This document shows positions 1-48,781 of a stretch of DNA of 64,000 bases, piece after piece. Within the stretch, counting starts at the first letter, position 1. Each line of letters starts with the position of its first letter. Made by a program: the position numbers and the translations under genes. Below the pieces are notes generated by a model. It saw only the letters and a program-made list of their open reading frames with translations. It had not been told where the DNA came from and searched no databases. The stretch lies in NCBI GenBank assembly GCA_951406725.2, contig OX597819.1:114948001-115012000 (forward strand), given 5' to 3'. The DNA comes from Octopus vulgaris. Taxonomy: Eukaryota.

Positions 1-264
1 CTTTGTGTTTTCAGAACAGAAATATAATTTCACTCGCCAAGAAAAGCCGTTTTACAGCGGTATCTCGATGATATATAGCTACATGCCACAGCTTAAGTTT
101 AGTTGTCCTGCTGAGAAATCCAGTTACGTTTTCTCAGATATATCTATTTTATATATATTAACCTGATTGATCAGCATGCTTCTTTTCCTTCAGATAGTTT
201 GTTGTTACATTTAACTGTTAGATGATGATCGTATTAGATTTCTCTTTCATCTGGATTATATGTA

Positions 265-1556
265 CGAGGGACGTTCAATAAGTAATGCTTCTGACCCACT
301 TGCAATTATTTGATCTAGCTGGAATTTTGCATGTGCAATTATTTATATCTCTATAGATTAAGTGGCAAATTACAGCTCTGGACTAATTGCGGTTTCTGAT
401 TTACAGGTGTTTGAACTGAGTCAAGTATGAAATGGAGCCTGTTGAGTGTCGAGCAGTGATCCGGTTTTTGTATTTGAAAGGACGCACACCACGGAAGACT
501 TTTGATGAAATGAAAGTAACTTATGGTGATGATGCCCCATCATATGACCTTGTAAAACCCTGGCATCGTGAATTTAAACATGGTCGGAACTCTGTGAAAA
601 CAGCTCCCGGATCTGGTCGCTCCCTTCTGCCATTGATGAGGCATCTGTCCGTCAAGTTGAGGCTGCCATTTTGGAGGATCGACGCATAACTATTCGCCAA
701 ATAGCCCATGAGGTCAAGATTGGTACCGGGTCTGTGGAAACTATCATTCATGACCATTTGGATATGCAAAAGGTGTCTGCAAGATGGATTCCCAGGCTGC
801 TCACACCTTTCCAGAAGCAAGTACGCGTCGAGTGCACGAGGATGAATTTGGAGATGTGCCAAGAAGATGAGTCAAAATTTTTCAAAAGACTGATTACACA
901 GGATGAAACCTGGGTCCATCATTATGATCCAGAGACCAAAGACCAGTCAATGCAGTGGAAGCACCGTGACTCACCTCCTCCAAAGAAGGCAAGGGTGCAG
1001 CCCTCCGCAGGCAAGGCCATGCTCACAGTCTTCTGGGACCAGGACGGAGTAGTGATGACAGATTTCCTGGCAAAAGGTACCACAATTACAGGAGCCTATT
1101 ATGCTTCACTTTTGAGGAAATTAAGAGAAGCTATCAAAATCAAGAGGCGGGGCAAGGTCAGCAAAGGCATCCTCCTCCTGCAGGACAACGCTCCGGTCCA
1201 CAACTCGCTTGTCGCCAGATCAGAAGCACGGGCGTGCGGCTATGAACTCCACCCCCATCCCCCCTACTCTCCTGACCTTGCACCCTCTGATTTTCACCTC
1301 TTCCTAGCCATGAAGTTGTTTTTGAAAGGAAAGCATTTCCCAGATGATGCAGACTTGATTTCTGAAGTCATGTCGTGGTTGGAGGACCAAACTGGGGTCT
1401 TCTACAAAAACGGTCTCCAGAGCTGCATCAAACTAAGGGAGAAATGCGTAACTCTGGGTGTTTCCTATGTAGACAAAGTCTAATAACTGTGCCAGGTTTC
1501 GTTGCTCTACTGCTATAGGAAGTGGGTCAGAGGCATTACTTATTGAACGCCCCTCG
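265..1556 (+). mobile_element. Full-length mariner DNA transposon (DD34D, probably irritans-type), 1292 bp
   Basis: TIRs CGAGGGACGTTCAATAAGTAATGCTTCTGACCCACTT / AAGTGGGTCAGAGGCATTACTTATTGAACGCCCCTCG. TA target duplication at 263-264 and 1557-1558. Contains a transposase. Confidence 0.95.
432..1483 (+). pseudogene. mariner transposase with one frameshift near 620-670
   Basis: ORF 432 carries the N-terminal HTH (CRAVIRFLYLKG). ORF 671-1483 carries WIPRLL, TQDETW, LQDNAP and YSPDLAPSDF. 34 residues separate the 2nd and 3rd catalytic Asp. Confidence 0.92.
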
Positions 1557-1571
1557 TATATATAAAAATTT

Positions 1572-1621
1572 AATTGGTCATCTTCACTTACAACCGCTTC
1601 TGTAAGTGAAGATGACTGATT
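1572..1621. repeat. Short hairpin, ~21-bp stem and 8-nt loop
   Basis: AATTGGTCATCTTCACTTACA-accgcttc-TGTAAGTGAAGATGACTGATT. The inner 16 bp are perfect and the outer part has G-U pairs. Confidence 0.85.
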
Positions 1622-1839
1622 TGGCGTTAATAATAAACAAATATTAACTTCCCAATATCCGTTTTCTTCTTTTGAATGAATATAAACTATACGTTTTTAT
1701 ATATAGCTATTATTTTAATAAAATTCATTCCTCCAAAATACTTGGTATTGAACCAGTATTTCCTTGGACGAAACCATCCCTTCATGAAGTTAACAACCTC
1801 TAATTAAATATATATGTATATATATATATATAGAGAGAG

Positions 1840-2190
1840 AGAAAATAGTAAAAAGTGAAAAAACTACAGAAGGCTTAAATGTTAAAAAATATATATTTGC
1901 GTCAATATGTCTGAAGAATATTAAAAAAATTTTTTCTCTTATAATGACATAATTTAGAAGAAAGATCGGTTTCGCGTTTAGCTTTTCAAATTTCTTGCGA
2001 AATTTCTCGCAAGAAATTTGAAAAGCTAAACGCGAAACCGATCTTTCTTCTAAATTATGTCATTATAAGAGAAAAAAATTTTTTTAATATTCTTCAAAAA
2101 TTTTTTTAATATTCTTCAGACATATTGACGCAAATATATATTTTTTAACATTTAAGCCTTCTGTAGTTTTTTCACTTTTTACTATTTTCT
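1840..2190. repeat. Large palindrome with ~160-bp arms, flanked by (TA)n; probably a Penelope-derived inverted terminus
   Basis: 1840-2000 is the reverse complement of 2007-2190. The right arm has a ~22-bp internal tandem duplication. Contains GAAACCGATC. Confidence 0.85.
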
Positions 2191-2249
2191 ATATATTCAA
2201 CCACGTGCTTTCACAAACCAACTTTCTTATCTATCTATCTATATCTATA

Positions 2250-2287
<38 letters not shown>

Positions 2288-2289
2288 CC

Positions 2290-5200
2290 AGATGAAAGAG
2301 AAATCTAATACGATCATACGATGTATATAATAGAAATATATTACAAAAAGAAAATAGAAAGTACACGTGGAAATGTAAGGGGAAAGTTAGAAGAAAAATA
2401 GGCGAAAATGCACTTTGGAAATCAAAAAAAGTAAAGGCCTTTTTATGAAAAGTAACGATAGATATATACAATTAGATGAACTGAGGTAGGAATAAAACTA
2501 ATAAAAGTCATTATTGTGAATTGTTAAAGATATTCAAAAGCATACCGGTTTCGTGAATTTACTAATCATTACTTTGAATGCACACCGATTAATGAACTGT
2601 GTCAGGTCTGCTAGTCCCTGAGTGAAACGATTATATGTAAGGGAGGTAAGTAGTTCTGGATTTGGTGCAATTAGGGTAGATATAAATCTGTAATGTGAAT
2701 GGTGTATGGAATGTATGGGGGTTAGTGGTATTAATTGAAAGGTTAGCAGCGTTCTGTATTATGTTATGTGTTCATATTGAGTTGTGGAAAATATTTATTG
2801 ATGAAAGTTGCCTCTTTATTCATTCTTTCTTGTACTGAGGTGTTCTGTGAACATTGATAGAAGGGGAAAATTAGGAAATTATGGTTAAGATTCCTAGAAC
2901 ACCTTTCTATGTGTTCACTAACCTGTATCTGTCTGTATTGTGGGTGGCGGATTTGTTCTTTGTAGAGAGTGGTTCTTTGACGGAGTGATATTCCTGTTTG
3001 GCCAATGTAGTTATTACCACACCCTAAGCATGTAATGGCATAGATTGAATTTTCCAAGGCACAGGCGAAATTTGATTTGTTCTTAAATATTTCAGCTTGT
3101 TTAAAGTGGAATTCTGAACCCTCAAAAAGTGAGGGCATGTACCACAGTTAGGTCGACCACATTTTTTCACTTTTGGTTCTGTTGTTAATGGATATAGTCT
3201 TGTGCTGGTTAATATTTTTTTCAATGATTTAGGTTGCATTTTGCTCTTGATAATTTTGTGTGAGCCTAAAATTTTGTTCATTGTTTTATCTCCTGTGAGG
3301 ATGGGAAGATTTTGGATGATAATGTTGAAGGCTACATTGTTTCTAGGGTTATGTGTGGAGATGTATGGGAGTATTTTTAAGTCTGGTTTGGTATTTCGGT
3401 TGATTTCCCTTAATGTTCGTATATCTATTTCCATAGCTCGTTTAATGCCATCATTTATTAATGATATTGGGTAATGTCTTTTGATTAGTATTGATCTGAG
3501 TTCAAGGAGTCTTCATTCCTGAGTATAGGTGTCCGAAGCTATAGTACATATTCTTTTTGCTAGATTATAAGGTATATTAATTTTTATGTGTTTGGGGAGG
3601 CATGAGTTGAATAATAGGTATTGTTTAGAATCTGTGAGTTTATAGAAGATGTCTGTTTCGATGTGGTTATTGACTATTTTAATTAGGATGTCAAGAAAAG
3701 GGAGTTGTTTACTGCTGTGCTCCATGGTGAATTGTATGTTGCTATTAATATTGTTAAGCATTGTTTTGAAATCGAGGAGTTTGTTCATGCTATCTTTCCA
3801 AAGTATAAAGCAATCGTCCAAATACCTCTTCTAGTTCTCCTTTAAATAGCAATGAAATGAAGTGCTATTTTTGTAGTGATGATTGATATATTTTAAGCTC
3901 TAGGTAACCCATTGCAAGGTTCGCAATCACTGAAGCAGCTCGGGTTCCCATTGCAATTCTACATTTTTGTCGATAGTAAACTGTATCGAACATGAAATAG
4001 TTGTTCAGTAGGCTGAATTTGAGTGCTTCGATTATGAATCTGTGGTTAATGCGTCCTGGGATCTCTTCTGGGTATTTTTCTAGCTAGGAGCTGATCGCTT
4101 CTATACCATAATTTTGTGGGATATTGGTGTACAAATTTACCACATCGAATGATACTGACAGGGTTCCTTCATTTATTGTCTTCGGGAGGTGGTTTAGCAT
4201 GTCTAAGTCATCCCTGATGAAGCTTTTCACATATTTTAGAAACGGTTTGAGTAAGATGTCGAGGAAGTTGCTCAAACGGTGGGTTTCACAAGCAGGGTAC
4301 TGTGTTCACAAAAAGCATCAGGTACTTTATTTCTGCCTTTTGTAGGACAGTATTCACTTTTGTTTTTTTACTACTGAGTCATCTTCGCAGGTGTAGTGTT
4401 TCTGTGAGGCGTAATTTCGGCAGAAATCCATAGTGTTATCCTTAATTTCATTCGGGTTCGATCTGCGAGGGGTTGGAGTAAACTTTAAACCTCTTGCTAG
4501 AATTTTAGTTTGTGTAATACTTTTTCTTTGATAAGTTGATTATTTTCGGTTGTTCTTGAACATTTTGTTCCATTTCACATCTCTGTTTCTCTGATTTTGG
4601 TTGTAGTAGGTGGATTGTTGTGGAAAATCTGTATTGTGTTTGGTTTGCTGGGGAGAAAATGGGTGTAAAGTGTGTCTGTGGTAGTATGCTTGTGGTGGCG
4701 TGACTGTATAGCGGACTAGATTATGGTTGTACTGAGGGTTGTTATATTGACTATGGTTGATGTGGTTTGGGTTAAATTTATTTTTGATATTGAAATGTGG
4801 GTGGAAGGAGAAGTTATGTTGTCTAGTTAGGTTGTGTCTAGTTGAATGATTGAAGTAACCATGTTGAGGGCTAAGTCCCGGACGTAAATTCTTCCATTGA
4901 CTCTGAGATGATGGGGGTAGATTGGTAGGTATTGCTTCCCAAAAGTTTAGGTTAGTCTGGAGGTTTCGATGGAACCTTTGATTTGTATGTAGGATGCCTT
5001 GAGGATTACGTCTAGATTTTCTATTGTGGACTGAATTCCTGATTGTTGTTTGAAAGTTATTTTGGGGTGTAAGAGAGGTCAGGTCGATGGAGTTGTGTCC
5101 CCTAGATCGTCTGTGGTTTGTGTTAGATAAGTGTGGGGTCATTTCTGTGTATGTTTTTGGTCTATTTTTCTTCTAGAAGGAGTTATCAGATGCGTTTTCT

Positions 5201-6169
5201 ATGTTAAACTGTGTTTCGTAGTTAATAAATAAATTGGCTTGTCTTTCCCAGCGTTGTAGGGAATTGGTTTCTTCAGCTTCGCAAGTTTAAAAACACTTTC
5301 CAAGCGATGACCATCTAAATGTTCCTTTAATTTGTTGTAGATTTCCTCATCTAGGTTTTTAAATTTCTGTTCATTGCTTAGCGCTCTAAGCTTAAGGAGT
5401 TCTATTTCTGTCTTAATTTTTTCCAGTGTTAGTTTCTCCCTTAATTGTCTTTGTTGGTCCTGTTCGTTTGAAATGCGTTTAATTTGGAATTTATGAGGCA
5501 AAATTATTGGTGTAGAATTTAACCACCGTTCATAAATTTCTGCCTTGTGGTTGTTTTTAATCATATTCCAGAAAGAAAATTTCTGGCTTTAAGCTTTTCA
5601 TTCCATATGCGTATAATGCGGTTTGTAATAGACAGTGTAAGCGTGAATGGGGTTCTATCTTGTGTATCATCTGTAGGAGGATATTCATTTAAATAATTAT
5701 TTGGAGGTAAAGAATGAAGAGTGGTGCAGAATTCGGACAAATGTTGATTGAGCTGTTGCAGAGATTGTTCTTTCTCTTCTTTTTCTTTTGCTTCTTGTGT
5801 AAAGCGAGTGAGTTCATCGATCTTGCTAATTAAAAGTCTCAAATTCGTGTTGATCTCTTTCAGTTCCTTAAGAGTCTCTTCGTTGAGAGTTTTAACTGTA
5901 GAGTTTGGTGTTTGTGGCATTTTCAATCCCACGTGTAGTGAAATACAATAGAAATATGTTACAAAAAGAAAACAGAAACTACACGTGGAAATGTTCACGA
6001 AACCGGTATGCTTTTGAATCTCTTTAACAATTCATAATAATGACTTTTATTACTTTTATTCCTACCTCAGTTCATTAATTGCATATATCTATCGTTGCTT
6101 TTCATAAAAAAGCCTTTACTTTTTTTGATTTCCTATGTGTATTTTCGCTTATTTTTCTTCATACTTTCC

Positions 6170-6170
<1 letters not shown>
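2290..6170 (-). mobile_element. Penelope-like retroelement (Neptune-type architecture), decayed
   Basis: RT motifs SFDVVNLYTNIP (4084-4275) and YLDDCFILW...LPFLDILI (3513-3830). Cys linker CGRPNCGTC. C-terminal GIY-YIG IYAITCLGCGNNYIGQTG (2764-3138). Upstream ORF remnants 4540-5998. 5995-6170 is an inverted copy of 2380-2556 and 5947-5994 a direct copy of 2329-2376 (pLTR pattern). Both ends abut (TA)n. Confidence 0.9.
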
Positions 6171-6171
<1 letters not shown>

Positions 6172-6244
<73 letters not shown>

Positions 6245-6338
6245 TGTATGTATGTATGTATGTATGTATGTATGTATGTATGTATGTATGTATGTATGTA
6301 TGTATGTATGTATGTATGTATGTATGTATATATGTATG

Positions 6339-6372
<34 letters not shown>

Positions 6373-6457
6373 TGTATATATGTATGTATGTATATATATA
6401 TGTATATATATATGTATATATATATATATATATACACACATATATGTGTGTATGTGT
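6172..6457. repeat. (TA)n/(TATG)n microsatellite
   Basis: Direct reading of the sequence. Confidence 0.95.
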
Positions 6458-6459
6458 AC

Positions 6460-6655
6460 TGGTCTCAAATTTTGGCACATGGCCAGCAAGTTCGGAGGAG
6501 GGGAGGAAGTAAGTCGATTACATCGACCCCAGGTCTCAACTGATACTTATTTTATCGATCCCGAAAGGATTAAAGGTTAAGTCGTCCCAGACGGAATTTG
6601 AACTCAGAACATAAAGACGGACGAAATGCCACTAAGCATTTGCCCAGCGTGCTAT
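6460..6655 (-). mobile_element. tRNA-derived SINE (family II, core CCTTTCATCCTTTCGGGGTCGATAAA), diverged copy
   Basis: Reverse complement aligns with the copies at 41895, 63360 and 25880. Confidence 0.8.
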
Positions 6656-6846
6656 CATACCTAATGCTTATGACATCCAAAGATTATCTTCTATTTGAAA
6701 TTCTAGCAAAGAGAAAAGAAAAAATCAAAATATAATTATAAGAAATAATGTCAAAACGAGTCTTTTTAGGTCTATAATTATCTTAAATTACTATATAGTA
6801 ATGTAAATTTAAATAATGTGATATAGCACACTACAGTTTTACTTAC

Positions 6847-6868
6847 CTTATGATCTTGAAGATGACTT
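6847..6868 (-). other. Non-coding 5' exon end of putative paralog C of the 12-Cys secreted protein family; the coding exons are presumably left of the window
   Basis: Minus strand reads ctgaacttagAAGTCATCTTCAAGATCATAAG|gtaagt, nearly identical to 23367-23388 and 37860-37880. Confidence 0.7.
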
Positions 6869-6897
6869 CTAAGTTCAGATCTAGAAAATGAAATAAG

Positions 6898-7007
6898 TAA
6901 TTTTCAGATACCACTGTAATGGTGAAGATCGCAGGCACCAGCTGGAACCGTTAATCGTTTTATTGAAATTCGCAATTGCATTTTAACATTTGTTCTTGAT
7001 TTATCAT
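6898..7007 (-). promoter_or_regulatory. Conserved upstream block of paralog C
   Basis: ATGATAAATC, GCAATTGCGAATTTCA, CAGCTGGTG and AGTGGTATCTGAAAATTA occur in the same order as at 37708-37829. Confidence 0.6.
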
Positions 7008-7099
7008 GTGTCTTGACATATAATTGGGAAATATTACAAAATGCTTCGAATTACGTTTCTTTTCTGATCTTGTATTTCATTGGTTTGATCTGGAAGAGG

Positions 7100-22527: not shown

Positions 22528-22897
22528 GACAGGATTCTTGCTGTTTCTGTGTACCAAATCCACTCCGAAGACTTTGTTCAGCCGTGAGTGAATAAGTCAA
22601 TTTCATTATTCTTATGGTTTAAAAAGATCATTCTTTATAATTCGGGCGATAATTATTGATTTTTCTTTATTTATTACCCACAAGGGGCTAAACACAGAGG
22701 GGACAAACAAGGACAGACATAGGTATTAAGTCGATTACATCGACCCCAGTGCGTAACTAGTACTTAATTTATCGACCCCGAAAGGATGAAAGGCAAAGTC
22801 AATTATTGATGGTAATAATTCAACATCCCAAAGAGAGAAGGAGAGGGACATAAGTTCCAAACATTTTGTCGTGTTATCCTACAGTATCATGGCTCAC

Positions 22898-22996
22898 ATA
22901 ATAAATCGGAAATAAACATTCAAACGTAATTGTGAATATGAAAAGAAAACCTAGAGCACTGACATATTTATTAGGAAATTTTCTTTACAGCTGGCG
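22898..22996 (+). promoter_or_regulatory. Conserved upstream block of gene A
   Basis: ATAATAAATCGG, GTAATTGTGAATATGA and CAGCTGGCG are degenerate versions of the motifs upstream of genes B and C. A ~350-bp microsatellite separates them from the exon end. Confidence 0.5.
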
Positions 22997-23116
22997 TACT
23001 ACACACACACACACACCATGCACACACTCACACACACACATATATACATACACACACACATGTAAACATTATATATATATGTATAAATGAGTGTATATAT
23101 ATATATACATATATAC

Positions 23117-23167
<51 letters not shown>

Positions 23168-23240
23168 CATACTTACATACGTATATATATATATATATAC
23201 ACATACATACATACATACGTACATATATATATATACATAC

Positions 23241-23292
<52 letters not shown>

Positions 23293-23366
23293 GCACACAT
23301 ATTTATGCATGTGTTTATGCTTGTATGTGTGTGTATGTATATAGATGTATATATTTCTGAACGTAG

Positions 23367-23388
23367 AAGTCATCTTCAAGATCAGAAG
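23367..23388 (+). other. Non-coding 5' exon (3' end) of gene A
   Basis: ctgaacgtagAAGTCATCTTCAAGATCAGAAG|gtaagt has a consensus donor and is paralogous to 37860-37880 and 6847-6868(-). Its 5' boundary is uncertain. Confidence 0.7.
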
Positions 23389-23489
23389 GTAAGTGAAATA
23401 TGTGTAGTGTTCTATTTAACAGTGAAATAGAATTTTGATGCTAAATGTATATAATTACAATGCCAAATACATTTAATTATTAATCGCTA

Positions 23490-28571: not shown

Positions 28572-28647
28572 ATGTATATTAGTCTGAAAGTTTTGCTTCC
28601 TCTTCTAGTCCTTCCAATTGTAAATGAGGTTCCAGGAATAAATGCAG
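28572..28647 (+). CDS. Gene A coding exon 1: signal peptide MYISLKVLLPLLVLPIVNEVPGINA
   Basis: ttcacttacag|ATG ... GCAG|gtatat. 76 nt, phase 1. Same size as the paralogous exon 44119-44194. Confidence 0.85.
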
Positions 28648-28813
28648 GTATATATCAGGATGTTGCTTTAATTTTGCATCTTTTTCTTTTGGTCTCTTTG
28701 TATCTCTTGTGGTACTTTTACACACACTTACACCCTCACACACATTAACATTGGCCCATTACAGAGCAGTGTCATATCAAGTTTTGTTTGTAAATACTTT
28801 TGAATACTAGTGA

Positions 28814-29130
28814 AGGCGCATGGCTCAGTGGTTAGAGCATCGTGCTCACAGTCATGAGGTTGTGAGTTCGATTCCCGACCGGGCTGTGTGTTGCGTTCTT
28901 GAGCAATTAACTTTATTTCATGTTGCTCCAGTTCACTCAGCTGTAGAAATGAGTTGCTACGTCACTGGTGCCAAGCTGTATCGGCCTTTGCCTAATCCTT
29001 GGATAACATCGGTGGCGTGGAGAGGAGAGACCGGTATGCATGGGCGACTGCTGGTCTTCCGTAAACAACCTTGCCCGGGCTTGTGCCTCGGAGGGTAATT
29101 ATCTTGGTGCATTCATGACCATAGGGGTTC
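28814..29130 (+). mobile_element. tRNA-derived SINE (family V)
   Basis: TGGCTCAGTGGTTAGAGC (A box) and GAGTTCGATTCCC (B box) followed by a non-tRNA body. Confidence 0.75.
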
Positions 29131-29294
29131 TTTATTTCTACTTTTGAAGATTATCTTCCTAAAACAATGTCACTCTAACATAATTTACACCAGATTATTT
29201 CTTCACCTTTTCCCTCTAGTTTAAAATTTCAGAAATCGCACATATTTTTTAATGTCTTTTACGTTTTGTGTCTCTCTTTTTTTTTACTCTCTAT

Positions 29295-29534
29295 TACTTG
29301 TTTCAGTCATTTGACTGCGGCCATGCTGGAGTACCGCCTTTAGTCGAGAAAATCGACCCCAGGACTTATTCTTTGGAAGCCTAGTACTTATTATATCGGT
29401 TTCTTTTGCTGAACCGCTAAGTTACGGCGACGTAAACACACCAGCATCGGTTGTCAAGCGATCTTGGGGGACAAACACAGACACACAAACACACACACAC
29501 AAACACACACACACACACACACACATACATACAT

Positions 29535-29591
<57 letters not shown>

Positions 29592-29750
29592 TACAGCGGG
29601 CTTCTTTCAGTTTCCGTCTACCAAATCCACTCATATGGTTTTGGTCGGTCCGAGGCTATAGTAGAAGACACGTGCCCAAGGTGCCACGCAGTGGGAATGA
29701 ACCCGGAATCATGTGGTTCGTAAGTAAGCTACTTACCACACAGTCACTCC
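29295..29750 (-). mobile_element. SINE family III with internal CA/TA microsatellite
   Basis: Reverse complement of the 58756-59210 type. Confidence 0.88.
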
Positions 29751-29927
29751 AGAATTTTCTCTTTACTATTTATTAATATTTAGAATACTAACTTCTAATT
29801 TGAATTAATTAAATTAATCGAAATTTAAAGCAGGGTAAAACATAAAGTAGACATTGCCATTAATCCATCATCTCGAATAAAGAAATAACGTTTCTTCTTT
29901 TCTTTTCTAAATATATTTCTTTTTCAG

Positions 29928-30047
29928 CCTGTAAAGGATGTGTTTTTGATGGAAAATGCTTTTGTGATGGCAAAGGTAAAAGTAAATCCGCCCATACATG
30001 TACAGAAATAGACTGTAAAAACGAAGTGGCAACAGTTATAAAAACAT
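29928..30047 (+). CDS. Gene A coding exon 2: ACKGCVFDGKCFCDGKGKSKSAHTCTEIDCKNEVATVIKT (6 Cys)
   Basis: Long polypyrimidine tract + ttttcag|CC ... ACAT|gtaagt. 120 nt, phase 1-1, open frame. Homologous to 44754-44876. Confidence 0.88.
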
Positions 30048-31697
30048 GTAAGTCAAATCTAAAATATTTCATTCTGAAAATTTTTCTTTCTTTTTTTGCT
30101 ATAGACAAAGGGCTTCAAATTTTGTTGTGTGTGTATGAGCTTTTCGATAACATCGATTTCAGTGCTAAATTTCTACATATTTTATCGATCTGGAAGGGAT
30201 GATAGGTAAAAATCGACCTCGGCGGAATTTGAGCCCAGAACATAAGACAGGCAAAAATGCCGTTCGGTATTTTGCCCGGCGTGCTAACGATTCTGCTAGC
30301 TCGCTATCTTAACACTTATTCAATTATTATGTTCCATATATCTGACCAAATGATTAGAGTGTTAGGCATACAGCCATAAGATCTTAGGTTCGATTCCAGC
30401 TTCAGTTATCGAAACGTTTCGTTTCATGTTTCTCCAATTTACGTAACAGAAAATGAATAACAAATAAGTACTGGTACCGCCTTCTCTCCCTCCAACTTAC
30501 ACATCCTCGCTATTTTGCTACTCCAAAGGCTGGAGGGCAAAGACGGTGTCTCTGCTCGTGTCTATACAGATGCGCAAAACAGTCACCTATAAAGCATGAT
30601 ACACATTACCAGGTCATACTTATGAGTGATAATCATAGAACATGTTATGAGGATGATGTCTCTATGTAATTTCCTACATTAATTATTTGGTTTCTCCAAC
30701 TCGTGCACATTTCTTGTAGATCGATATTATGATCTATCAAGTTCCGGAAAGAGCTATAATGTTCTTACGAAGTGTAATTTATTTGATACTTCTTTGGTCG
30801 TTAGATAAAATATGTAAGCACTCAATCATTTTGTTCATTATTGATTTCACTTTTATACATAATTTCTTAAATCCAATATAGTGTGAATTTTATTGCCAAT
30901 ATCTGGCTTCTACATTGCGGTGTGTGTTATGTCAGTTGTTGAAATTATTTCATACTATCATTTTTGGCATTTATAAAGTGAAATGTATGTTCAAGAGGAT
31001 GATGTTACTATGAAGGAGAACCATTTAGAGAAAATATTAATGTATGCAATTTCCCCATCGAAAATATTTTGCAAAGAATCATGTAGTGATGATGGTGTAT
31101 TTATAGACATATGTAGATTTTACACTATCAGCATGTTCAATGAAGAAACAGAAGAAATAAATGTTGAATGGAAAAAGCGAGGAATACCCGCAAATAGAAA
31201 CTTGGCTAAATATTTATCAAAGAAAGGAATTAAAAAATAAATATGCAAACACACGAGAAGGTACAGAAAAGTTCATGGTTTGGGTAAAAGAAAACACGGG
31301 AGTATCAGTAAATTACGATTTTATATCCAACATTTTCCCCTCTCAGTTTCACACACTTATTGCAGCGGCTCTTCAGTTTTTCTAAGCCCTGTAAAAGAGG
31401 TCGGAAAGTTGGGCTTCCAATCAGGCCTTTCGCGATACCCTTAAAACCAGGAACTTTTCAGCACCTCCTTGTATATTCAGCTGTAAGACTTCAAATTCAC
31501 CTTAGCTTAATTAAATTATTGTAAATGACTTGAGATACTCGTTCTGCCTTGGTTTTGATTTTTCCTATAATATAACATATACATGCTATAACGGAACCGA
31601 AACATGGATCCCTAGATCCAGACTTAGCTGTGATTTTGGAACCTAATGGTCAACCAACTATAGCACTTACCCAGCGTACCTATTCGTTTGCTACATA

Positions 31698-31770
<73 letters not shown>

Positions 31771-31842
31771 ATCCAAACAAGAAAACACAGAAAAAACACA
31801 GCAACGCGAGGACGTGGAACAATTAAAGTATTATTTGACGCT

Positions 31843-31880
<38 letters not shown>

Positions 31881-32049
31881 GTAAAAGGCCCAACTGAAAA
31901 TTCAATCGTTTTACGAAACCAGAGATATTAACCATTGTTCATGGACCCGTAAAACGAATGATCTCTCTGTAGGGCAAGCACATCTACCCAACACGTGAGT
32001 TGTATCTTTATTTGAAGTCCTTGTTCCATACCGGACATACTCAAACAAG

Positions 32050-32450
32050 CATACACACACCCACACACACACACACACACAAGTATATACACATACACAC
32101 ACGCATACAAACGCACACACAAGTATACACACACCCACACACACACACGCACACAAGTATATACACATACACACACACACATACAAACGCACACAACCCC
32201 CCCCACACACACACACAAGTATACACACACCCACACACACACACGCACACAAGTATATACACATACACACACACACATACAAACGCACACAACCCCCCAC
32301 ACACACACACAAGTATACACACACCCACACACACACACGCACACAAGTATATACACATACACACACACACATACAAACGCACACAACCCCCCCCCATACA
32401 CACACACACAAGTATATACACACATACACACACACACATAAACACATACA
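32050..32450. repeat. Higher-order CA-derived minisatellite (~95-bp unit)
   Basis: Recurrent CACAAGTATATACACATAC...ATACAAACGCACACAACCCCCC...CAAGTATACACACACCC blocks. Confidence 0.85.
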
Positions 32451-32657
32451 ACCGACACATACATCATAGCTATACCTTAAATACATTCTACAAACATTTG
32501 AATACATTAAGTTTAGATTTAACAATCTTAGAAAAATTTCTGAAATAATTGTGGCAGTTTGTATAAATACGCATACGTATACACATATTTACCGTGAGAG
32601 ATATTTTCATTTGTGTATTTGAAGAAGTCATAATTATGAAGTCAATTGTGTTTTCAG

Positions 32658-32789
32658 ATTGCAAAGATAATAAGGGAAATTGTCTGGACGCAGGGGAGAA
32701 ACATCCTGGTGTGTTTAACGAACGTTGTGTAACATTTGAATGCACGAAAGTGGTAAACGATTTTCATTTGAAGGTTATTTATAATGCGA
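32658..32789 (+). CDS. Gene A coding exon 3: YCKDNKGNCLDAGEKHPGVFNERCVTFECTKVVNDFHLKVIYNA (4 Cys)
   Basis: ttttcag|AT ... GCGA|gtaggt. 132 nt, phase 1-1. Same length as the paralogous exon 47303-47434. Confidence 0.88.
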
Positions 32790-32825
32790 GTAGGTACACT
32801 TTGAGTTTAATGTCTTCAACAATTT

Positions 32826-32936
32826 ACACACACACACACACACAGACCACACACACGCACACACACACTACACACACACACACACACACATAGACCACAC
32901 ACAGACCACACACACACACACACACATAGACCACAC

Positions 32937-32983
<47 letters not shown>

Positions 32984-32989
32984 CCACAC

Positions 32990-33032
<43 letters not shown>

Positions 33033-33100
33033 ACACACCACACACACACACAGACCACACACACGCACACACACACACTACACACACACACAGACCACAC

Positions 33101-33158
<58 letters not shown>

Positions 33159-33175
33159 CACACACACACGCACAT
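32826..33175. repeat. (CA)n array punctuated by AGACC
   Basis: Direct reading of the sequence. Confidence 0.9.
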
Positions 33176-34284
33176 CACATATTCTTCCGGATGAATATGG
33201 TTCGGAATTCTCTTCTGATTTACTGTCAGGTTTGACCCCACTTAGATTTTGTTTCTCTGTAGGCTCTCATAGTGTGTGTTTATGGTCGGAGTTGTCCTCT
33301 TAGTCTGGCTGTCTTCCGAGGCAGTCGAACCGATACCACCCAACAAGTTATACTGCCAGAGCAGAGATATGCTTTATCAAAAGCTAGGGAGTGTCCCACT
33401 CCCAGTACTCTTATAGCAAATCAGACACGAATCTAGAATTTTTAATGACTTTCTGTTGCTAGATCGTCGATGACCCTACAGTGGATTCAACCGTACTTTT
33501 CGAAAGTCTTGATTTTGTCCTAATGGGTTTCTAGCAATCCTCTTCACCAAGCAAGCCTGGTAGAGGAGTCTGTTTAGTTGAAGATGATCCGACTATACAG
33601 CTGGTTGTACGAGACATGCTACTAGCAGCACTCATGAATAACTAGATACACACACACATGCCACTTTAGAATAATACTTAGAAACTTGACCATGAAAGAA
33701 AGAATTTGGCACAAAAGATCGAACACTCTCCATTGTCCATAAAACCAGTTGGAATACTGAAAAAAGAAAATTTGTCGAGTAATCACAACGGCTTAAACAA
33801 TATCATTTATGTATTGTTTATACGTGACAGACAATACGACGGCCAGCTGGCAGAATTGTTATCGTACCGGTCAAAATCCCTTGGCTTTATTTCTTCCGGC
33901 TTTACTCTCTGAATTCAAATACCGTCGGGATTGACTTTGCCTTTCATCTTTTCGGAGTTGATAAAATAAGTGCCACTTTCCCGGAATTGATAGCCATGTG
34001 TCAAAATTTGGAACCAGTTATATGTGACAATATATATATATACAAATTGAGATAGGGATTGTAAATACAACCCTCCATGGGATAAAATATATCCAATATT
34101 GTACTTATTGTATCACATTACTCCTTTATGTACACTCCTTTATGTACACTGTTTTGTTCTATATTATTATGTTTGACCTTAAAGTTTCTTATGTGGTGGT
34201 TTAATAAAGTATGTGATTGGGTATTATCTGGTAATTGATATTTGATTTGGATGTATTTCTCCATTTTCTTATTTTGTATATATT

Positions 34285-34335
<51 letters not shown>

Positions 34336-34670
34336 ATGAACAAAATCTGAAACTCATATTCTATAACACGATTAGTAGAGAGTCAAGATTATATGCTTCT
34401 CTATACGACCTTATATCTTATCTGTAACATGAGACAATTATCACCCTCTACATCTCTTCGGGTATATGACTTCCAAACCACCACACCAAACCAATCACCA
34501 CATTTGTTAGAAAACTTATCAAATGTTCTTGTATAGTACTATAACCAATGAATACAATTAAATATTTTAATCCTCATGTATTGAAAAGGTATACGAGAAA
34601 ATATGATCAGTATGCCTTTGCCTGGTGAATAAATTGAATTAAAACTGTATTGTTTTGTTATATTTTGTAG

Positions 34671-34738
34671 AGTGTTCGCTGCAGCATATTTATGCGGGAG
34701 GACAGAAATATCTGGGGGATGACCTGAAACACTGTTGA
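34671..34738 (+). CDS. Gene A last coding exon: KCSLQHIYAGGQKYLGDDLKHC-stop (2 Cys)
   Basis: tattttgtag|AG ... TGT TGA. 68 coding nt, as in the paralogous exon 48782-48849. AATAAA at 34738-34743 and 34781-34786. Confidence 0.85.
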
Positions 34739-36192: not shown

Positions 36193-37707
36193 ATAATTAT
36201 TATGTTATGATATATATAATCACAAATCTTCATTTAAAAACTTCATTTCCACCTTATTAAGTAAATTTATCTGGAGCCTCAAAAGGAAGAATATTAGATA
36301 CTGTATTGAATGATCAGTGCCGTATAATGGAGGAAACTGAAGTACAACATGTATCTCAAGAAGTTGCAAATCCAACATATTAATTTAAAGGAATGATAGG
36401 AATAGGATACGTGTGACCTAACAGAGTTCAAATTCTAGTTCAAAATGCTTTAAACACTATCTTGTTGGAAAGTCGAGAAACGAATGAATTGAATTTCACG
36501 GATTACAACGACCCCAATCCCTGCGTGCGTTAGGTGACATTTAACATTAAAAAAAAGTTAGATGTTCCAAAGATTGTATAATCATCTAAGGATTTCCGGT
36601 CGTCCAGTGATTGTTGGGGAATAAAAAGTCATCCGTCTAAAAGCATTACCATATTTACTGCTACTCTTGTTCAGGATTACCGACTATCATTAGGCTACCG
36701 AAAAAGGGTTACTCCTTTAGTTGACATGAAAGGAGGCAACTGTGCGTGCTTCGAAAATCCTCATCTCGCTAAAAACTACCACATTTAAATTTAATGAACT
36801 GAGCTAATTAAGCAAGTATCACTGCTTCTCCGACAGCCTCAGGACGCGCAGAAATCATTCTTTAGTAAGATGTACTGACTTACAAATCACAATCATCTGG
36901 GATATGCCTGTCCAAACTAACGGAGAGGTCAAAGGAAACTATTCAGATATGGTAATCAAGGATTGGAGGGGGAAATGTATACACAGATAGACATCTCAAT
37001 CCCATGGGAAGAAGTGGAACCTGCCAAAATACTAGTATTTTAAAAGTGAAATATTTAAGATGTGGGGGCATGAAGGCGAACACAGTACAAATAATAACTG
37101 GAATATTCGGTGTGATGCCAAAAAGTAAACGCCTTAAATACAAACTTCGACAATATCGCCTAATTAGGTCATGAGCAACACGGTAGCTTCAATAAATTAT
37201 GTGAGTGTCACATGGAGATGCTGAATGTTCCAGCATCTGGCACAGTGCTACTGCTGCACATGCCAACATCATAAACTACATACCAAAACAAGCTGCTAAT
37301 GTCAGTCATCAATACACTCCAATCTCTAGCCCAGAAACGTTGTTTCCTCGAAGCTTGGTGCCATCACCACTCAGGCACTCCCAACTCAATCATTTTGTCT
37401 GCAAATAGCCACGCCTTAACAACGATATGCGGTCTTTCCTCCTCAGATCGTCAGCTATCGAGAATTCCCTTGCTTAAAATATTATCTGTGCAGTCATCAA
37501 GTCGCAACTATTCAGAAGGGAACATGAATTATCTCGGTCCTACCAGAGTAGGAAAGATCGCGGAGGCCATTGATCCAGCCCCCTCCTAACTAACAAAAAC
37601 TAACAAAAACAATTTTGTTAGATGAAACTAACAAAAAAAAAAAAGATAAAGAAAACAAGTAGATTTTAGCATTTTGTAATATTTCCCTATGACACTCCAC
37701 GACTCGT

Positions 37708-37829
37708 ATGATAAATCGAAATGACAGGTGAAGCAGAATCATTAAGAAGCAATTGCGAATTTCAGTTATAACTGCTTAATAGCAGCTGGTGTTTGCAACT
37801 GCCAGAATTTGAGTGGTATTTGAAAATTA
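37708..37829 (+). promoter_or_regulatory. Conserved upstream block of gene B
   Basis: ATGATAAATC (37708), GCAATTGCGAATTTCA (37749), CAGCTG E-box (37783) and AGTGGTATTTGAAAATTA (37812), shared with 6898-7007(-). Confidence 0.6.
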
Positions 37830-37859
37830 ACTTATATCGTTCTCTATTTCTGAACATAG

Positions 37860-37880
37860 GGCCATCTTCAAGTTCATAAG
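37860..37880 (+). other. Non-coding 5' exon (3' end) of gene B
   Basis: ctgaacatagGGCCATCTTCAAGTTCATAAG|gtaagt. Its 5' boundary is uncertain. Confidence 0.7.
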
Positions 37881-44118: not shown

Positions 44119-44194
44119 ATGTGTATGCTTCTGAGAGCTTTGTTTTTTCTTCTACTTCCAATAATTGTTGTTGTGGTTTCATTTGGTCGTACAG
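44119..44194 (+). CDS. Gene B coding exon 1: signal peptide MCMLLRALFFLLLPIIVVVVSFGRT
   Basis: ctttacag|ATG ... ACAG|gtatgt. 76 nt, phase 1, with a hydrophobic core. Confidence 0.88.
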
Positions 44195-44753
44195 GTATGT
44201 TTCAGTATTCATAAATTACTGATTTTCTATTCATACCACTGAGTTGACTTTATAGGACACTGATATGCGCCCAGCTAATATTTAAAACCTTCCAAGAAAT
44301 TTCTCCGAATCTTACAGGAAATAAAGCTTAAACGCTTATTCAGTAAAGAAATAATTCACATTGTAATAGCCACATTTAACAGTCGCTTTCCAAAACATAA
44401 CTTTGCATAAAAGCATAATTACTAACGCATGTGTAGAATGGCTTCTTGGCGTACTTTTCTGGATTCAAGCAGTAGACATCTCTCTTATGTAAATAAGCAT
44501 TCTAGATTTCTTACATACAGTTGTGCTAAAAAAAAAGGGTTATATTGCAAACTTACAACAGATCAGTGACTATTTTTCTTTTATGTCCGTATTTAACAGA
44601 TGTTCCTCCTAAGTCAATATTCATAAGCCGCCCATATAATTTTTCTCAAAATATCTGTCAATTATTCTATACCTCGGGAACTTTCTTTTCAATTATGCCA
44701 TAGAATACTGCTTCACTCCTCACGTAAACAACGTTTTGATTTTTTTCTTACAG

Positions 44754-44876
44754 AATGTAATGGATGTTACGTAGCAGGAATGTGTATTTGTAATGGTACA
44801 ACAGGTGTATATAGAAGACTTTATACCTGTTTGAAAATAGAATGTGTTGGGGGCATAATCAAAGTTCTTCAAACTT
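44754..44876 (+). CDS. Gene B coding exon 2: ECNGCYVAGMCICNGTTGVYRRLYTCLKIECVGGIIKVLQT (6 Cys)
   Basis: ttttcttacag|AA ... ACTT|gtaagt. 123 nt, phase 1-1. Confidence 0.88.
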
Positions 44877-45125
44877 GTAAGTAAGACTGAAATATTCATG
44901 TCACATAATTCATCTCTCAAACTATTAGTTTTGTTTTTATATATAATTTCTTAAATACTTAATGTCTATTGCGATTTTAATTAATTTCGGAGCCTCGTGG
45001 AGCTTTAGGTGTTTTCGCTCAATAAACACACACAACGCCCGGTCTGGGAATCGAAACCGCGATCCTCCGACCGCGTGTCTGCTGCCCTAACCACTGAGTC
45101 ATTGCGCCTCCACATACATATATTC

Positions 45126-46359
45126 TAGATTGAGTCAAAAGTTTTGCAATATTTTTGTAACCTATTAGCTTTATTCGTCAAATTCCAACAAAAGGACCCT
45201 AACATTCAAATAGATGTTATCCTTGTTGCAGGGTCTTTTCTGACAGTTTTTGATCCCATGCTGATATTAGTTTCTGTCCTTCGTTAGGAAGAGCTTCTTC
45301 GCTGAAGCTTCCATCTCCTCTTGATCGATGAAGTATGACGAGCACAGGAAATGAGCTACAGATCGGAACAAGTAATAATCCGAGTGTGGCAGCAGTTCGA
45401 TTTTCTCAAGTTCCAGGAATTTATTTCGGGTCGTCTGAGACGTATGAGGTATTGCATTTTGTTGCTGCAGATGAACTTACTTTCTGGTAATAAATACCGG
45501 ATAGTGGCATAAACCGGCTCCAGCTGGTATGATTTTTTGGCTGGCATCAATAATTCGACCGTCCGGAATGAATTCGTAGCGAATTATACACTCATAATTC
45601 CCCCAGGCGCAGAGCATCACCTTCTGTTCGAAACTCATAATCTTGGTGACAGGTTCCGAAGCTAGCCCTTTTTTAACAACTGCCTATGTACGTTAGGATT
45701 GCGGAACAGCATACACTTTTCATCGCGTATTATTAAACTCTTGAGGAATTCAGATCACGCGGTTTTCCAGAAGTTCCTTGCAAATAACCACTGACGTTTG
45801 TGCTTGAGCTGGGATCAGTTTGTGAGACACAATTCTGCAGTCCCGGATACTTTTCCCCGAGCTCGTGAAGGTGACGGACCACTCTGGACTGTAAGATGTC
45901 GACCTCACCTGATACTCTCTGAGTGCTACTCGCCGGATTTGCCTCTATGATTTGAAGCAAGACTTCGGAATTCACGGTTTTAGGTCTACCCGACCTTGTC
46001 TATTGTCGAGGTTCTTGCAACCGAAGCGAAATTTCTTGAACCATCTTGTTACTGTGCAGTGAGCAACTGCGCCTTTACCTTTCACACGAGAAATGCGTAT
46101 GGCTGCTTTCGCGGCGTTATGGTCAAGTTCGATCTCTCCAAACAAAAGTTACCGAGTTAGTCTACGTTGCACGTTCATATCTGAGCAGCTTTCAAATCAC
46201 ACACGGAATGAAGCAATACACAAACGTGTTGGCGCACCAACTACCACGATACTACCAACCTCAGTAGGTACCTTCCACGGCTTGAACTGCTTAGGTCACA
46301 TGATATACACGCTGCAAACTAGCTCGTATGCAAATGTTGCAAAACTTTTGACTCACCCT
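45126..46359 (-). mobile_element. Decayed full-length mariner-like element (~1.23 kb) in a gene B intron
   Basis: TIRs TGAGTCAAAAGTTTTGCAA.ATTT / AAATGTTGCAAAACTTTTGACTCA. Transposase remnant IEANPASSTQRVSGEV...VVRHLHELG. Confidence 0.8.
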
Positions 46360-46446
46360 TGTGTGTATGTGTGTGTGTGTGTGTGTGTGTGTATGTATGC
46401 GTGTGTGTGCGTGTGTGTGTGTGTGTGTTTTGTGTGTGTATGTGTG

Positions 46447-46489
<43 letters not shown>

Positions 46490-46529
46490 GTGTGTGTGTG
46501 TGTGTGTGTGTGTGTTTATATATACATCA

Positions 46530-47060
46530 AATGCAGACGGTTGGCTGGATGGATCCTTAGAACTTTCAGAACGAGAGAACAGGAAATCATGATGGTCCTC
46601 TGGAGGACATCTGTCCTCGGCGGTTTAGATTACTGCTCCCAACTCTGGTCACCACACAGTGTAAAATTAACGATGGCTCTCGAAGAAATCCAGCGAATCA
46701 ACACAAAGGACTTTTACCAAACTTTGGCATTGACAGTTACACAAACAGCAGAACGGAACGCCACTGCACAGTTCCAAAAATCCTAATACTTCTATCAGGA
46801 TACAGGACCAGGTACTGCAACGGCTTGAGTTTCAAGGCCCACAGCTCTTTAGTATCCTCCCCAAAAAAAACTGAGAGACTTACATAGGGTGGATATAGGC
46901 GTCTTCAAAGCAAAACTGACTCTCCTCCTGTTAAAAGTTCCAGATGAACTTACTACGCAGCAAGAGATGCAGATGGGGGTTGCAACATCAAACTCCGTCA
47001 TTCAGCAAATGTCATATACTGGAGGAGGTTTCAAGTACTGAAAGTGTAGCAAAGCTAACC
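46530..47060 (+). mobile_element. LINE 3' fragment (CR1/L2-like)
   Basis: LDYCSQLWSPH...LEEIQR motif. Confidence 0.65.
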
Positions 47061-47302
47061 GCGGTGTCCCAGCATGACCGCTGCTCTCGAGCTGAAACTA
47101 GTAAAGAAAAACTAAAGACAATGTTACAGTCTGAAGGTTAACAGTCCGAGAGTCACTGTCTCCGCTCTTGTAAAGTATTAACTACAAAAGTACAATCACA
47201 GACACACACACGCACATACACCTGTATATATGTATGCTTGTATGTATGTACTCAGTTCGTATGTATGCGAGTCATAATTAAATTTTTGTTACCTTTTTTC
47301 AG

Positions 47303-47434
47303 ATTGCAGGGATAATGCAGGAAATTGCTTACACATTAATGCCGTACAATTTGGTGTTCTTGGTAATTTTTGTGTAAGATTTTCCTGCACGATACAGAAC
47401 AATATACCTAGATTATTCGTACATTTGGGTCTGG
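47303..47434 (+). CDS. Gene B coding exon 3: YCRDNAGNCLHINAVQFGVLGNFCVRFSCTIQNNIPRLFVHLGL (4 Cys)
   Basis: ccttttttcag|AT ... CTGG|gtaagt. 132 nt, phase 1-1. Confidence 0.9.
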
Positions 47435-47496
47435 GTAAGTAAACCTTATTATTTAGTAGTATATGCACAATACACACACACACATATATATATATG

Positions 47497-47528
<32 letters not shown>

Positions 47529-48236: not shown

Positions 48237-48342
<106 letters not shown>

Positions 48343-48781
48343 TATCCATGTATATCCATAGATTGTAAGATGTAACGAATCAGTCTCTGCTATTATATTG
48401 ATTCATAATCTGAATTAATTGATACACGTTCCTGTGTACATATATCTTGTACAAACAATTTCTTTCGCTCATATTCATGATTTTCAAATATGTTTGATTT
48501 TATACTTCTTTTCATGAACCTCTCCTTTGATAATTGGATTTCGTGTTTCTATTCATCCTTAGCGAGCGATTACAAGCCAGCATCAACAATATACAATTGT
48601 CGAATTTCCAACCCATTGTACCAGAGATTCGTACACTAAATTTGTCTAAAATATCTTGTCTAGAGCTATGTCATTCGCTCTTGAGCTTATATTTTATCCT
48701 GATAAATTTCAGGAGATTCTTGACTAATGTTGCTTTCTCTGATGAATACGCTTAATATTTATTGGACGTTTTTCTTTCCAG

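What the first reader, a model, noticed from the sequence alone, without database searches (positions are those of the whole stretch)
6841..7007. Third paralog on the opposite strand, running off the left edge
Seen: the minus strand has AAGTCATCTTCAAGATCATAAG|gtaagt, 21/22 identical to the gene A 5' exon. It has the same upstream motif series as gene B and similar intron-start sequence (gtaagt...tgtagtgt.ctat) to gene A. I found no signal-peptide exon in 1-6840. Inference: gene C is transcribed divergently from A about 16 kb away, its first intron holds the mariner and Penelope elements, and the cluster extends beyond this window.
Basis: partly seen in the sequence, partly recalled or inferred. 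Interest (0 to 1): 0.72.

Follow-up and report, generated by a model that had tools for sequence, protein, structure and literature searches.

The report
Octopus secreted fibronectin-finger gene family
The flagged stretch is the promoter and non-coding first exon of an intact octopus gene whose coding exons lie just left of the window; it is one of about 19 similar, uncharacterised genes that are predicted to make small disulfide-tied secreted proteins with two fibronectin-finger-like modules, likely released by a gland.

Summary
Confirmed. The minus-strand block is the promoter and untranslated exon 1 of gene C (donor 6847|6846). Four coding exons of 76, 123, 132 and 68 nt lie 7-25 kb left of the window, with AG/GT sites, and give an intact 132-aa, 12-cysteine protein: 131/132 identical to an Octopus sinensis model, 112/131 to an O. 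bimaculoides model. Contigs of an RNA-like run stop at the donor and run on into an ATG exon. The 14.1-kb intron 1 holds a mariner and a Penelope-like element. The block is no interspersed repeat (5 matches in the genome).

The cluster has four genes here (C, A, B, D). The family has about 19 genes in three clusters on one chromosome, plus some 11 loci of a 10-cysteine sister group. AlphaFold gives two fibronectin-type-I-like modules (best Z 6.3, modest); no Pfam family matches. Exon 1 and a CAGCTG box 95-98 nt above the donor are kept although synonymous sites are near saturation and the proteins diverge fast.

Best reading: gland-secreted binding proteins under one shared secretory-cell promoter; tissue and target are untested. 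The duplication is ordinary; the family was not found in the papers searched.

The parts
6847..6890 (-). Gene C exon 1, non-coding (no ATG). 3' end 6847 is exact; the 5' end (about 6882-6890) is inferred
   Evidence: X1 contigs lie on 6847-6882 and have loose ends at 6847; contigs cannot show a start
6828..6846 (-). Splice donor GTAAGT (6846-6841) and conserved intron-start TGTAGTGT (6835-6828)
   Evidence: GTAAG...TGTG/TGCG also follows the donor in six cluster-2 promoters
6891..7091 (-). Gene C promoter: GCATTTTGTAATATTTCCC (7044-7026), ATGATAAATC (7007-6998), GCAATTGCGAATTTCA (6979-6964), E-box CAGCTG (6944-6939), TGAAAATT (6906-6899)
   Evidence: promoter role inferred from position and conservation
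1..6846 (-). In-window half of gene C intron 1 (14,132 nt). The coding exons lie left of the window at G000:C6:114940714-639 (76 nt), 114938722-600 (123), 114933579-448 (132), 114923561-494 (68), i.e. window positions -7286, -9278, -14421, -24439
256..1565 (+). Mariner element inside intron 1 (terminal inverted repeats 256-301 / 1520-1565; transposase split over two frames)
   Evidence: Transposase_1 E 3.5e-25, HTH_48 E 4.3e-8
2373..6177 (-). Decayed Penelope-like retroelement inside intron 1 (RT-like pieces, C-terminal GIY-YIG, repeated ends)
   Evidence: GIY-YIG E 1.1e-4, above cut-off; three RT pieces gave no Pfam hit, RT motifs read by eye
22845..23388 (+). Gene A promoter and exon 1: same motif series at 22853-22995, then a ~370-nt (CA/TA)n tract, then exon 1 (23353-23388)
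   Evidence: (E 9.7e-10)
28572..34738 (+). Gene A coding exons 28572-28647, 29928-30047, 32658-32789, 34671-34738 (131 aa, 12 Cys)
37620..37880 (+). Gene B promoter and exon 1 (donor after 37880)
44119..48849 (+). Gene B coding exons 44119-44194, 44754-44876, 47303-47434, 48782-48849 (132 aa)

Best explanation
The block is the conserved promoter and untranslated first exon of an intact gene, C, whose predicted product is a small secreted protein of two fibronectin-type-I-like modules that a gland likely releases to bind other proteins. Shown: exon 1 donor, four coding exons with intact frame and splice sites, orthologues in two other Octopus species, about 19 paralogues, the conserved motifs. 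Predicted: signal peptide (hydrophobic residues ~5-20), two-module beta fold, six disulfides, among them a C38-C132 clasp. Inferred: C arose by inverted tandem duplication of a whole gene with its promoter; selection keeps exon 1 and the CAGCTG box, so one bHLH factor (MIST1/Dimmed type is a candidate) would switch the paralogues on together in one secretory cell type; the fixed cysteine frame carries fast-changing surfaces that bind partner proteins along the free beta-strand edges, as fibronectin fingers do (recalled). Odds by step: real gene 0.97, secreted FnI-like fold 0.85, gland-secreted binder under a shared bHLH promoter about 0.55.
For: Intact ORF and phase-1 splice sites. 131/132 to O. 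sinensis XP_036359386, 112/131 to O. bimaculoides LOC106869804; C groups with these at 100/98. X1 contigs end at the donor with ATG-exon loose ends; 22 of 23 consensus letters match exon 2 of A or C, three of them only C; X1 contigs also cover C exon 2. Exon 1 is 29-32/36 identical among A, B, C while synonymous sites differ at 45-59% (dS 0.69-1.17). CAGCTG lies 95-98 nt above the donor in 7 of 8 aligned promoters, 117 in the eighth, 401 in A behind a microsatellite; background 0.30 per kb. MIST1 and DIMMED prefer CATATG/CAGCTG (PMC5322730, passages). 12 Cys in 14 of 14 full-length family proteins; C38 is absent in 4 of 4 sister proteins, which all have 10 Cys. AF2 pLDDT 84.6; 8 of the top 10 Foldseek rows are fibronectin FnI chains; VIA best Z 6.3, rmsd 5.2, 83 aligned to the 8-9FnI pair, and rmsd 1.5 over 40 for one module. 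A limpet relative (E 2.4e-4) scores Fn1_2 at 26 bits, cut-off 27. Pairwise dN/dS 0.50-0.95.
Against: No tissue is known for any run. X1 is only guessed to be RNA, is from a relative, and gave contigs, not reads; the exon-1-to-C-exon-2 joint is read from a two-contig consensus, not seen as one bridging record. Fold scores are modest (no Foldseek E <= 0.001, no Z >= 8) and hhalign found no sequence repeat between exons 3 and 4 (probability 0.1). The cluster-2 promoters were found with a model that contained the E-box, so its constancy is partly circular; no promoter was found for gene D, for cluster 3 or for several cluster-2 genes. CAGCTG is bound by many bHLH factors (recalled), and MIST1 sites are usually in first introns (PMC5322730), not upstream. 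dN/dS rests on 131-132 codons and stays below 1.
Confidence: 0.6

Rival explanations
1. The proteins are venom or saliva components of the posterior salivary gland that act on prey proteins (a special case of gland secretion).
For: Small, secreted, disulfide-rich, tandemly expanded and fast-diverging, the usual profile of venom families (recalled). Tick complement inhibitor CirpT appears weakly (Z 2.9; Atlas score 0.80).
Against: No Pfam match to any listed cephalopod venom class (CAP, pacifastin, serine protease and others in PMC7693380, passages). No positive link to salivary tissue was found.
Confidence: 0.15
2. They are immune or defence effectors of blood cells or mucus, like single-domain VWC proteins.
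For: Atlas feature hits include SVWC and VWC2L clusters (0.75-0.76); the limpet relative has a weak SVWC score (E 0.005); rapid divergence fits host-microbe conflict.
Against: Atlas scores under 0.9 are leads only; no family member matches SVWC or VWC in Pfam.
Confidence: 0.12
3. They are structural parts of an egg coat, spermatophore or other extracellular matrix rather than diffusible binders.
For: Closest solved folds are matrix proteins (fibronectin, FCGBP, mucin); the MSMB-like USM is an egg-coat component (PMC3268785, passages); mature chains are basic (pI 8.3-8.9).
Against: Only two modules, an even cysteine count with no spare Cys for cross-links, and fast surface change.
Confidence: 0.1
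4. The high exon-1 identity of C and A comes from gene conversion between the inverted pair, not from selection.
For: C/A is the best pair in exon 1 (32/36) but the most distant in protein (34%) and dS (1.17); the two are inverted repeats 16.5 kb apart.
Against: B is nearly as close (29/36 to C, 30/35 to A); cluster-2 genes 8.7 Mb away keep the same exon end and intron start; identity is well below 100% and does not extend into A's upstream part or the introns.
Confidence: 0.12
5. The block is an orphan promoter fragment or a dispersed repeat.
For: None beyond the repeat-rich surroundings.
Against: 5 matches in 2.8 Gb, all at family genes; intact coding exons downstream.
Confidence: 0.01

Closest known systems
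O. sinensis LOC118763715 (XP_036359386) and O. bimaculoides LOC106869804, both 'uncharacterized protein'
   Same: Orthologues of gene C: 131/132 and 112/131 identical
   Different: Computational models with no family, fold or function given; the ids were not found in the paper library
Fibronectin type I modules (PDB 3ejh, 1e8b, 2cg6) and invertebrate Fn1_2 / mig-18-like proteins (PF23003)
   Same: Predicted tandem pair of small beta-sheet fingers; one module per phase-1 exon; a limpet Fn1_2-like protein is the nearest named non-octopus hit
   Different: No Pfam match; C-x4-C in place of the FnI CxC (recalled pattern); stand-alone 132-aa protein with an extra N-terminal CxxC, a CxC and a helical tail ending in Cys
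beta-microseminoprotein family (MSMB/MSMP/USM; squid Loligo beta-MSP), PMC3268785 passages
   Same: Small secreted disulfide-rich two-domain beta proteins, tandem paralogue arrays, fast evolution; MSMB3 aligns to module 1 (Z 4.1, rmsd 2.4, 38 residues)
   Different: 12 Cys, not 10; five exons with the ATG opening exon 2, not four with the ATG closing exon 1; no PSP94 Pfam hit
Single-domain VWC proteins (PF15430) and tick CirpT complement inhibitors
   Same: Small secreted cysteine-rich beta proteins of the same broad fold group (weak hits)
   Different: No Pfam match; scores at chance-like level

Membership tests
Fibronectin type I (fn1 / Fn1_2) | Pfam profile match above the curated cut-off | tested here: not met
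   0 of 10 members of A10, 0 of 8 single exons, 0 of 12 further octopus-type proteins
Fibronectin type I (fn1 / Fn1_2) | FnI finger fold (two-stranded plus three-stranded sheet) | tested here: inconclusive
   FnI chains lead both searches (Foldseek probability 0.99, E 0.02-0.06; VIA Z 6.3, rmsd 5.2, 83 aligned; rmsd 1.5 over 40 for module 2) but no E <= 0.001 and no Z >= 8
Fibronectin type I (fn1 / Fn1_2) | Four Cys with a CxC in the third strand (vertebrate fn1 pattern, recalled) | tested here: not met
   C-x4-C in both modules in all rows of alignments A6 and A7
Fibronectin type I (fn1 / Fn1_2) | One module per exon with phase-1 introns on both sides (recalled) | tested here: met
   Genes A-D and the 21 cluster-2/3 exons examined (20 with the acceptor at the expected place; the other resolved)
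MSMB/MSMP/USM microproteins | Ten conserved cysteines (PMC3268785) | tested here: not met
   12 in 14 of 14 family proteins; the sister group has 10, not aligned to MSMB here
MSMB/MSMP/USM microproteins | Four exons, start codon at the 3' end of exon 1 (PMC3268785, for MSMB and USM) | tested here: not met
   Five exons; ATG is the first codon of exon 2 in A, B, C, D
MSMB/MSMP/USM microproteins | MSMB fold | tested here: inconclusive
   6rwc MSMB3: Z 4.1, rmsd 2.4, 38 residues, one module only
MSMB/MSMP/USM microproteins | Expression in reproductive-tract or mucosal glands | not testable with these tools
   Runs carry no tissue label
Single-domain VWC (PF15430) | Pfam profile match | tested here: not met
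Interspersed repeat | Many dispersed copies unlinked to one gene family | tested here: not met
   5 of 5 scored candidates are family promoters; the search skips very common words
MIST1/Dimmed target genes | Bound CAGCTG/CATATG E-box | tested here: inconclusive
   Motif conserved in place; binding not testable; position upstream, not intronic as usual for MIST1 (PMC5322730)

The most novel reading that the evidence does not exclude
An octopus-expanded superfamily of about 30 secreted FnI-like proteins is the octopus counterpart of squid beta-MSP: a battery of species-specific protein signals (pheromones or gamete-recognition factors) made together in one reproductive gland through a shared E-box promoter that each duplicate carried along, with paralogues gained and lost between close species (gene E).
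Probability: 0.2. Interest if true: 0.75.

Novelty: new variant of a known kind. Interest (0 to 1): 0.42.

Why it matters
The flagged block itself is an ordinary duplicated promoter and first exon. Its value is as a way into a sizeable octopus gene family that has no Pfam profile and that current models partly fuse (A+B in XP_052824914; B+E in XP_014771142). It now has exon models, a predicted fold, a disulfide hypothesis and a shared promoter motif. If the family is the main product of one gland, it gives direct candidates for octopus chemical signals or venom components, and a compact gland promoter to test in a group with few mapped regulatory elements.

Tried and rejected
One search used exon ends off by one base; corrected. 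The look-up of sequencing runs listed no holder on record as RNA; this is no evidence on expression. No contig of runs X5 and X14 was laid on exon 1, and X8, X9 and X19 did not cover exon 2; a blank in contigs proves nothing and is not used. In one search an intronic repeat filled the loose-end table (110 rows not shown), so the exon-2 ends of X1 could not be read. Contig depth in X1 was far higher on the exons than beside them (about 12,600 on 6847-6882 against 21 in the intron; 13,000-83,000 summed on exon 2 against 7-71), but the tool says depth cannot rank parts of a gene, so it is only a hint. Pfam and PDB sequence search (0 at E <= 10) gave no family. hhalign of exon 4 against exon 3 was negative; one search was not a valid repeat test because A6 holds full-length rows. 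Alignment A8 stacked exon 4 on exon 3 and was not used. P0027 (897 aa, repetitive, PKD-like) was dropped as spurious. Hits on C13, C4 and C6:37 Mb were not confirmed by the exon HMMs. Papers: 12 gene or protein ids gave 0 papers; topic searches listed no description of this family, judged from titles and abstract starts. Supplement searches found none of the ids or short motifs: PMC10138644, PMC7693380 (file cut when stored), PMC11525497, PMC12607849 (only 393 characters held). These blanks do not exclude a salivary or mucus origin. The squid beta-MSP paper was not held. No TATA box at the usual distance was seen; Inr/DPE readings were ambiguous and dropped. No complex was folded, as no partner is known. 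Earlier scan notes held nothing on this family.

Full report
1. Observation. The 28-mer lies at 6868-6841 on the minus strand and at 23367-23394 on the plus strand with one mismatch; 0 of 100 shuffles reach two matches. Self-BLAST links 6817-6879 to gene A (85% over 66 columns) and 6835-7091 to gene B (70.6% over 279, E 4e-24). The part upstream of exon 1 alone scores 69 against B, versus at most 32 in 1000 shuffles, while intron pieces score 20-25. In the 2.8-Gb genome the block has 5 matches among 5 scored candidates: itself, B, A and two places at C6:123.72-123.74 Mb, which are promoters of further family genes. It is not a dispersed repeat.

2. Gene C. The window is G000:C6:114948001-115012000. 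I fetched 200 kb on each side. Proteins A (131 aa) and B (132 aa), built from four coding exons each, find four minus-strand exons at window positions -7286 (76 nt), -9278 (123), -14421 (132) and -24439 (68), each after an AG, the first three before a GT, all phase 1, giving an open 132-aa frame; AATAAA follows the stop. The ATG is the first codon of exon 2; exon 1 has none. Intron 1 is 14,132 nt and holds a mariner (Transposase_1 E 3.5e-25) and a decayed GIY-YIG retroelement. The protein is 131/132 identical to O. sinensis XP_036359386 and 112/131 to O. bimaculoides LOC106869804, so the genome is an Octopus close to O. sinensis and C is conserved across species.

3. Transcript evidence. No holder on record as RNA was listed. 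Run X1 (guessed RNA, a relative about 93-95% alike here) has three short contigs on 6847-6882 that stop at the donor; two continue with a consensus that, reversed, opens with ATG. 22 of its 23 letters match exon 2 of A or C, five only A and three only C. One of the two contigs carries a microsatellite upstream, as gene A does, so I read them as one A-type and one C-type spliced form (inference). X1 contigs also cover C exon 2. A longer X1 contig covers 6856-7259, so some molecules or DNA extend upstream. The start site (about 6882-6890) is inferred; contigs show neither start, strand nor level.

4. Family. A fourth gene, D (139 aa), lies right of the window at positions 71327-92005; no more were found within 200 kb either side. 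Exon HMMs over 1.03 Mb in three regions gave 18 exon-3 rows at E < 1e-5 (of 22 listed) and 18 exon-4 rows (of 18 listed): 4 genes at 114.9-115.0 Mb, about 10 at 123.48-123.83 Mb, about 5 at 22.60-22.73 Mb (tail exons). About 19 is a lower bound, and signal exons of clusters 2 and 3 were not mapped, so intactness there is not shown. A 10-Cys sister group has 21 exon matches at about 11 loci interleaved with clusters 2 and 3. The search of 1.84 billion representatives gave 20 hits at E <= 0.001: 15 named Octopus, one Patella (E 2.4e-4), three not looked up that resemble family members, one dropped as spurious. No squid or cuttlefish name appeared, which may reflect coverage. In a 37-row tree each of A-D pairs with an O. 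bimaculoides sequence at 100/98-100; the cluster as a whole has weak support (87/69). Paralogues A-D are 34-47% identical, dS 0.69-1.17, dN/dS 0.50-0.95: old duplicates with loosely constrained or adaptively changing surfaces.

5. Promoter and exon 1. Exon 1 keeps 29-32 of 36 bases among A, B and C although 45-59% of synonymous sites differ. Six cluster-2 promoters share the layout: TGATAAATC-like box (in four of them), CAGCTG, AAATT, an exon ending in AAG or ACG, GTAAG, then TGTG/TGCG. CAGCTG starts 95-98 nt above the donor in 7 of 8 aligned promoters. In A the same series is present but pushed 401 nt away by a ~370-nt microsatellite. The search model contained the box, so this is partly circular. 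MIST1 and its fly orthologue DIMMED, which build secretory cells, prefer CATATG/CAGCTG, usually in first introns (PMC5322730, passages); other bHLH factors bind it too (recalled). I take shared bHLH control as likely, the factor as open. Selection explains the exon-1 identity better than A-C conversion, since B and distant genes share it.

6. Protein. Hydrophobic N-terminus (best 11-residue hydropathy 2.3-3.5), no second hydrophobic stretch, 12 Cys in the mature chain, pI 8.3-8.9; no signal-peptide predictor was at hand. AF2 with 10 and 21 sequences gave pLDDT 71 and 85, two beta modules matching exons 3 and 4 and a short helix in exon 5. Fibronectin FnI chains lead Foldseek (8 of the top 10 rows, best E 0.018) and VIA-align (Z 6.3, rmsd 5.2, 83 aligned; rmsd 1.5 over 40 for module 2), followed by factor XII, FCGBP, MSMB3 (Z 4.1) and VWC domains. 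The Atlas's own model of a paralogue is nearest to mig-18-like Fn1_2 clusters (TM 0.57, under its naming bar). All scores are modest; their agreement is the evidence. All 4 sister proteins lack C38 and have 10 Cys, their last Cys aligning with C112, which suggests a C38-C132 bond; the other five pairings follow by analogy to the MSMB pattern (C37-C73 link in PMC3268785; rest recalled) and were not read from the model.

7. How it likely works. Whole genes were duplicated with their promoter, C in inverted orientation; large introns took up transposons without harm. A shared E-box promoter would drive the paralogues in one secretory cell type; the spliced message starts translating at the first base of exon 2; the protein is exported as a disulfide-locked pair of fingers whose exposed strands bind partner proteins, as FnI pairs bind collagen and bacterial peptides in the matched structures (titles; strand-pairing mode recalled). 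Gene structure is shown, fold predicted, gland and binding inferred. Squid beta-MSP on egg capsules triggers male aggression (as reported in PMC3268785; the original paper was not held), which makes a signalling role the boldest open case; venom, immune and coat roles remain.

8. Known versus new. It works like small FnI/VWC/MSMB-type secreted proteins but fails the tested membership features of each Pfam family. Orthologues exist as uncharacterised models. Ten library searches found no description; subscription papers are not searched and some supplements were cut or missing. Papers seen: passages of PMC5322730, PMC3268785, PMC7656900, PMC7693380, PMC10138644, PMC12607849; supplement searches only for PMC11525497; the rest as listings.

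9. Verdict. Observation confirmed, interpretation supported. The feature is an ordinary duplicated first exon; the family behind it is an undescribed variant of a known fold with a testable shared promoter. Interest 0.42.

Noticed in passing
window 48850 to position 71327 (G000:C6:114996850-115019327): A fifth cluster gene, E (O. sinensis LOC118763828; also the C-terminal part of O. bimaculoides XP_014771142, after B's exon), has no close match in G000 (best 51%) and no remnant between B and D; no exon 1 or promoter for D was found there either. A deletion or an assembly collapse may have removed E and D's promoter.
   Followed up: partly
window 22990-23356: A ~370-nt (CA/TA)n tract splits gene A's promoter from its exon 1, moving the E-box from 98 to 401 nt above the donor; contigs of runs X1 and X4 show a microsatellite-like flank on an A-type exon 1 too.
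   Followed up: partly
G000:C6:123716542-123716834 and 123738972-123739264: Two cluster-2 promoters 22 kb apart are identical over the aligned ~290 nt while their exons 3 and 4 differ clearly: recent conversion of the promoter or a partial duplication.
   Followed up: no
G000:C6:123.31-123.95 Mb and 22.16-22.77 Mb: Clusters 2 and 3, 100 Mb apart, both mix 12-Cys and 10-Cys genes and share a subfamily (100/99), as if one array was split by a rearrangement.
   Followed up: partly
public models XP_052824914, XP_014771142: O. bimaculoides models fuse gene A with B, and B with E: annotation artefact or read-through splicing between phase-1 exons.
   Followed up: no
P0020 (O. bimaculoides LOC106872966): No close orthologue in G000 (best 49%); UniRef labels it 'UPAR/Ly6 domain-containing', which the predicted fold does not support.
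   Followed up: partly
G000:C6:123549072 and 123549153: Two tail-exon copies 81 nt apart, and exon-3 copies at 123554840 and 123578215 without a nearby exon 4: likely partial or decayed genes.
   Followed up: no
window 38600-40650 (minus), 49305-49857, 50900-53800 (minus), 25883-26851: Further mobile DNA seen by eye or self-BLAST: two decayed LINE-like elements, a small element with 35-nt inverted ends, and tandem SINE copies.
   Followed up: no
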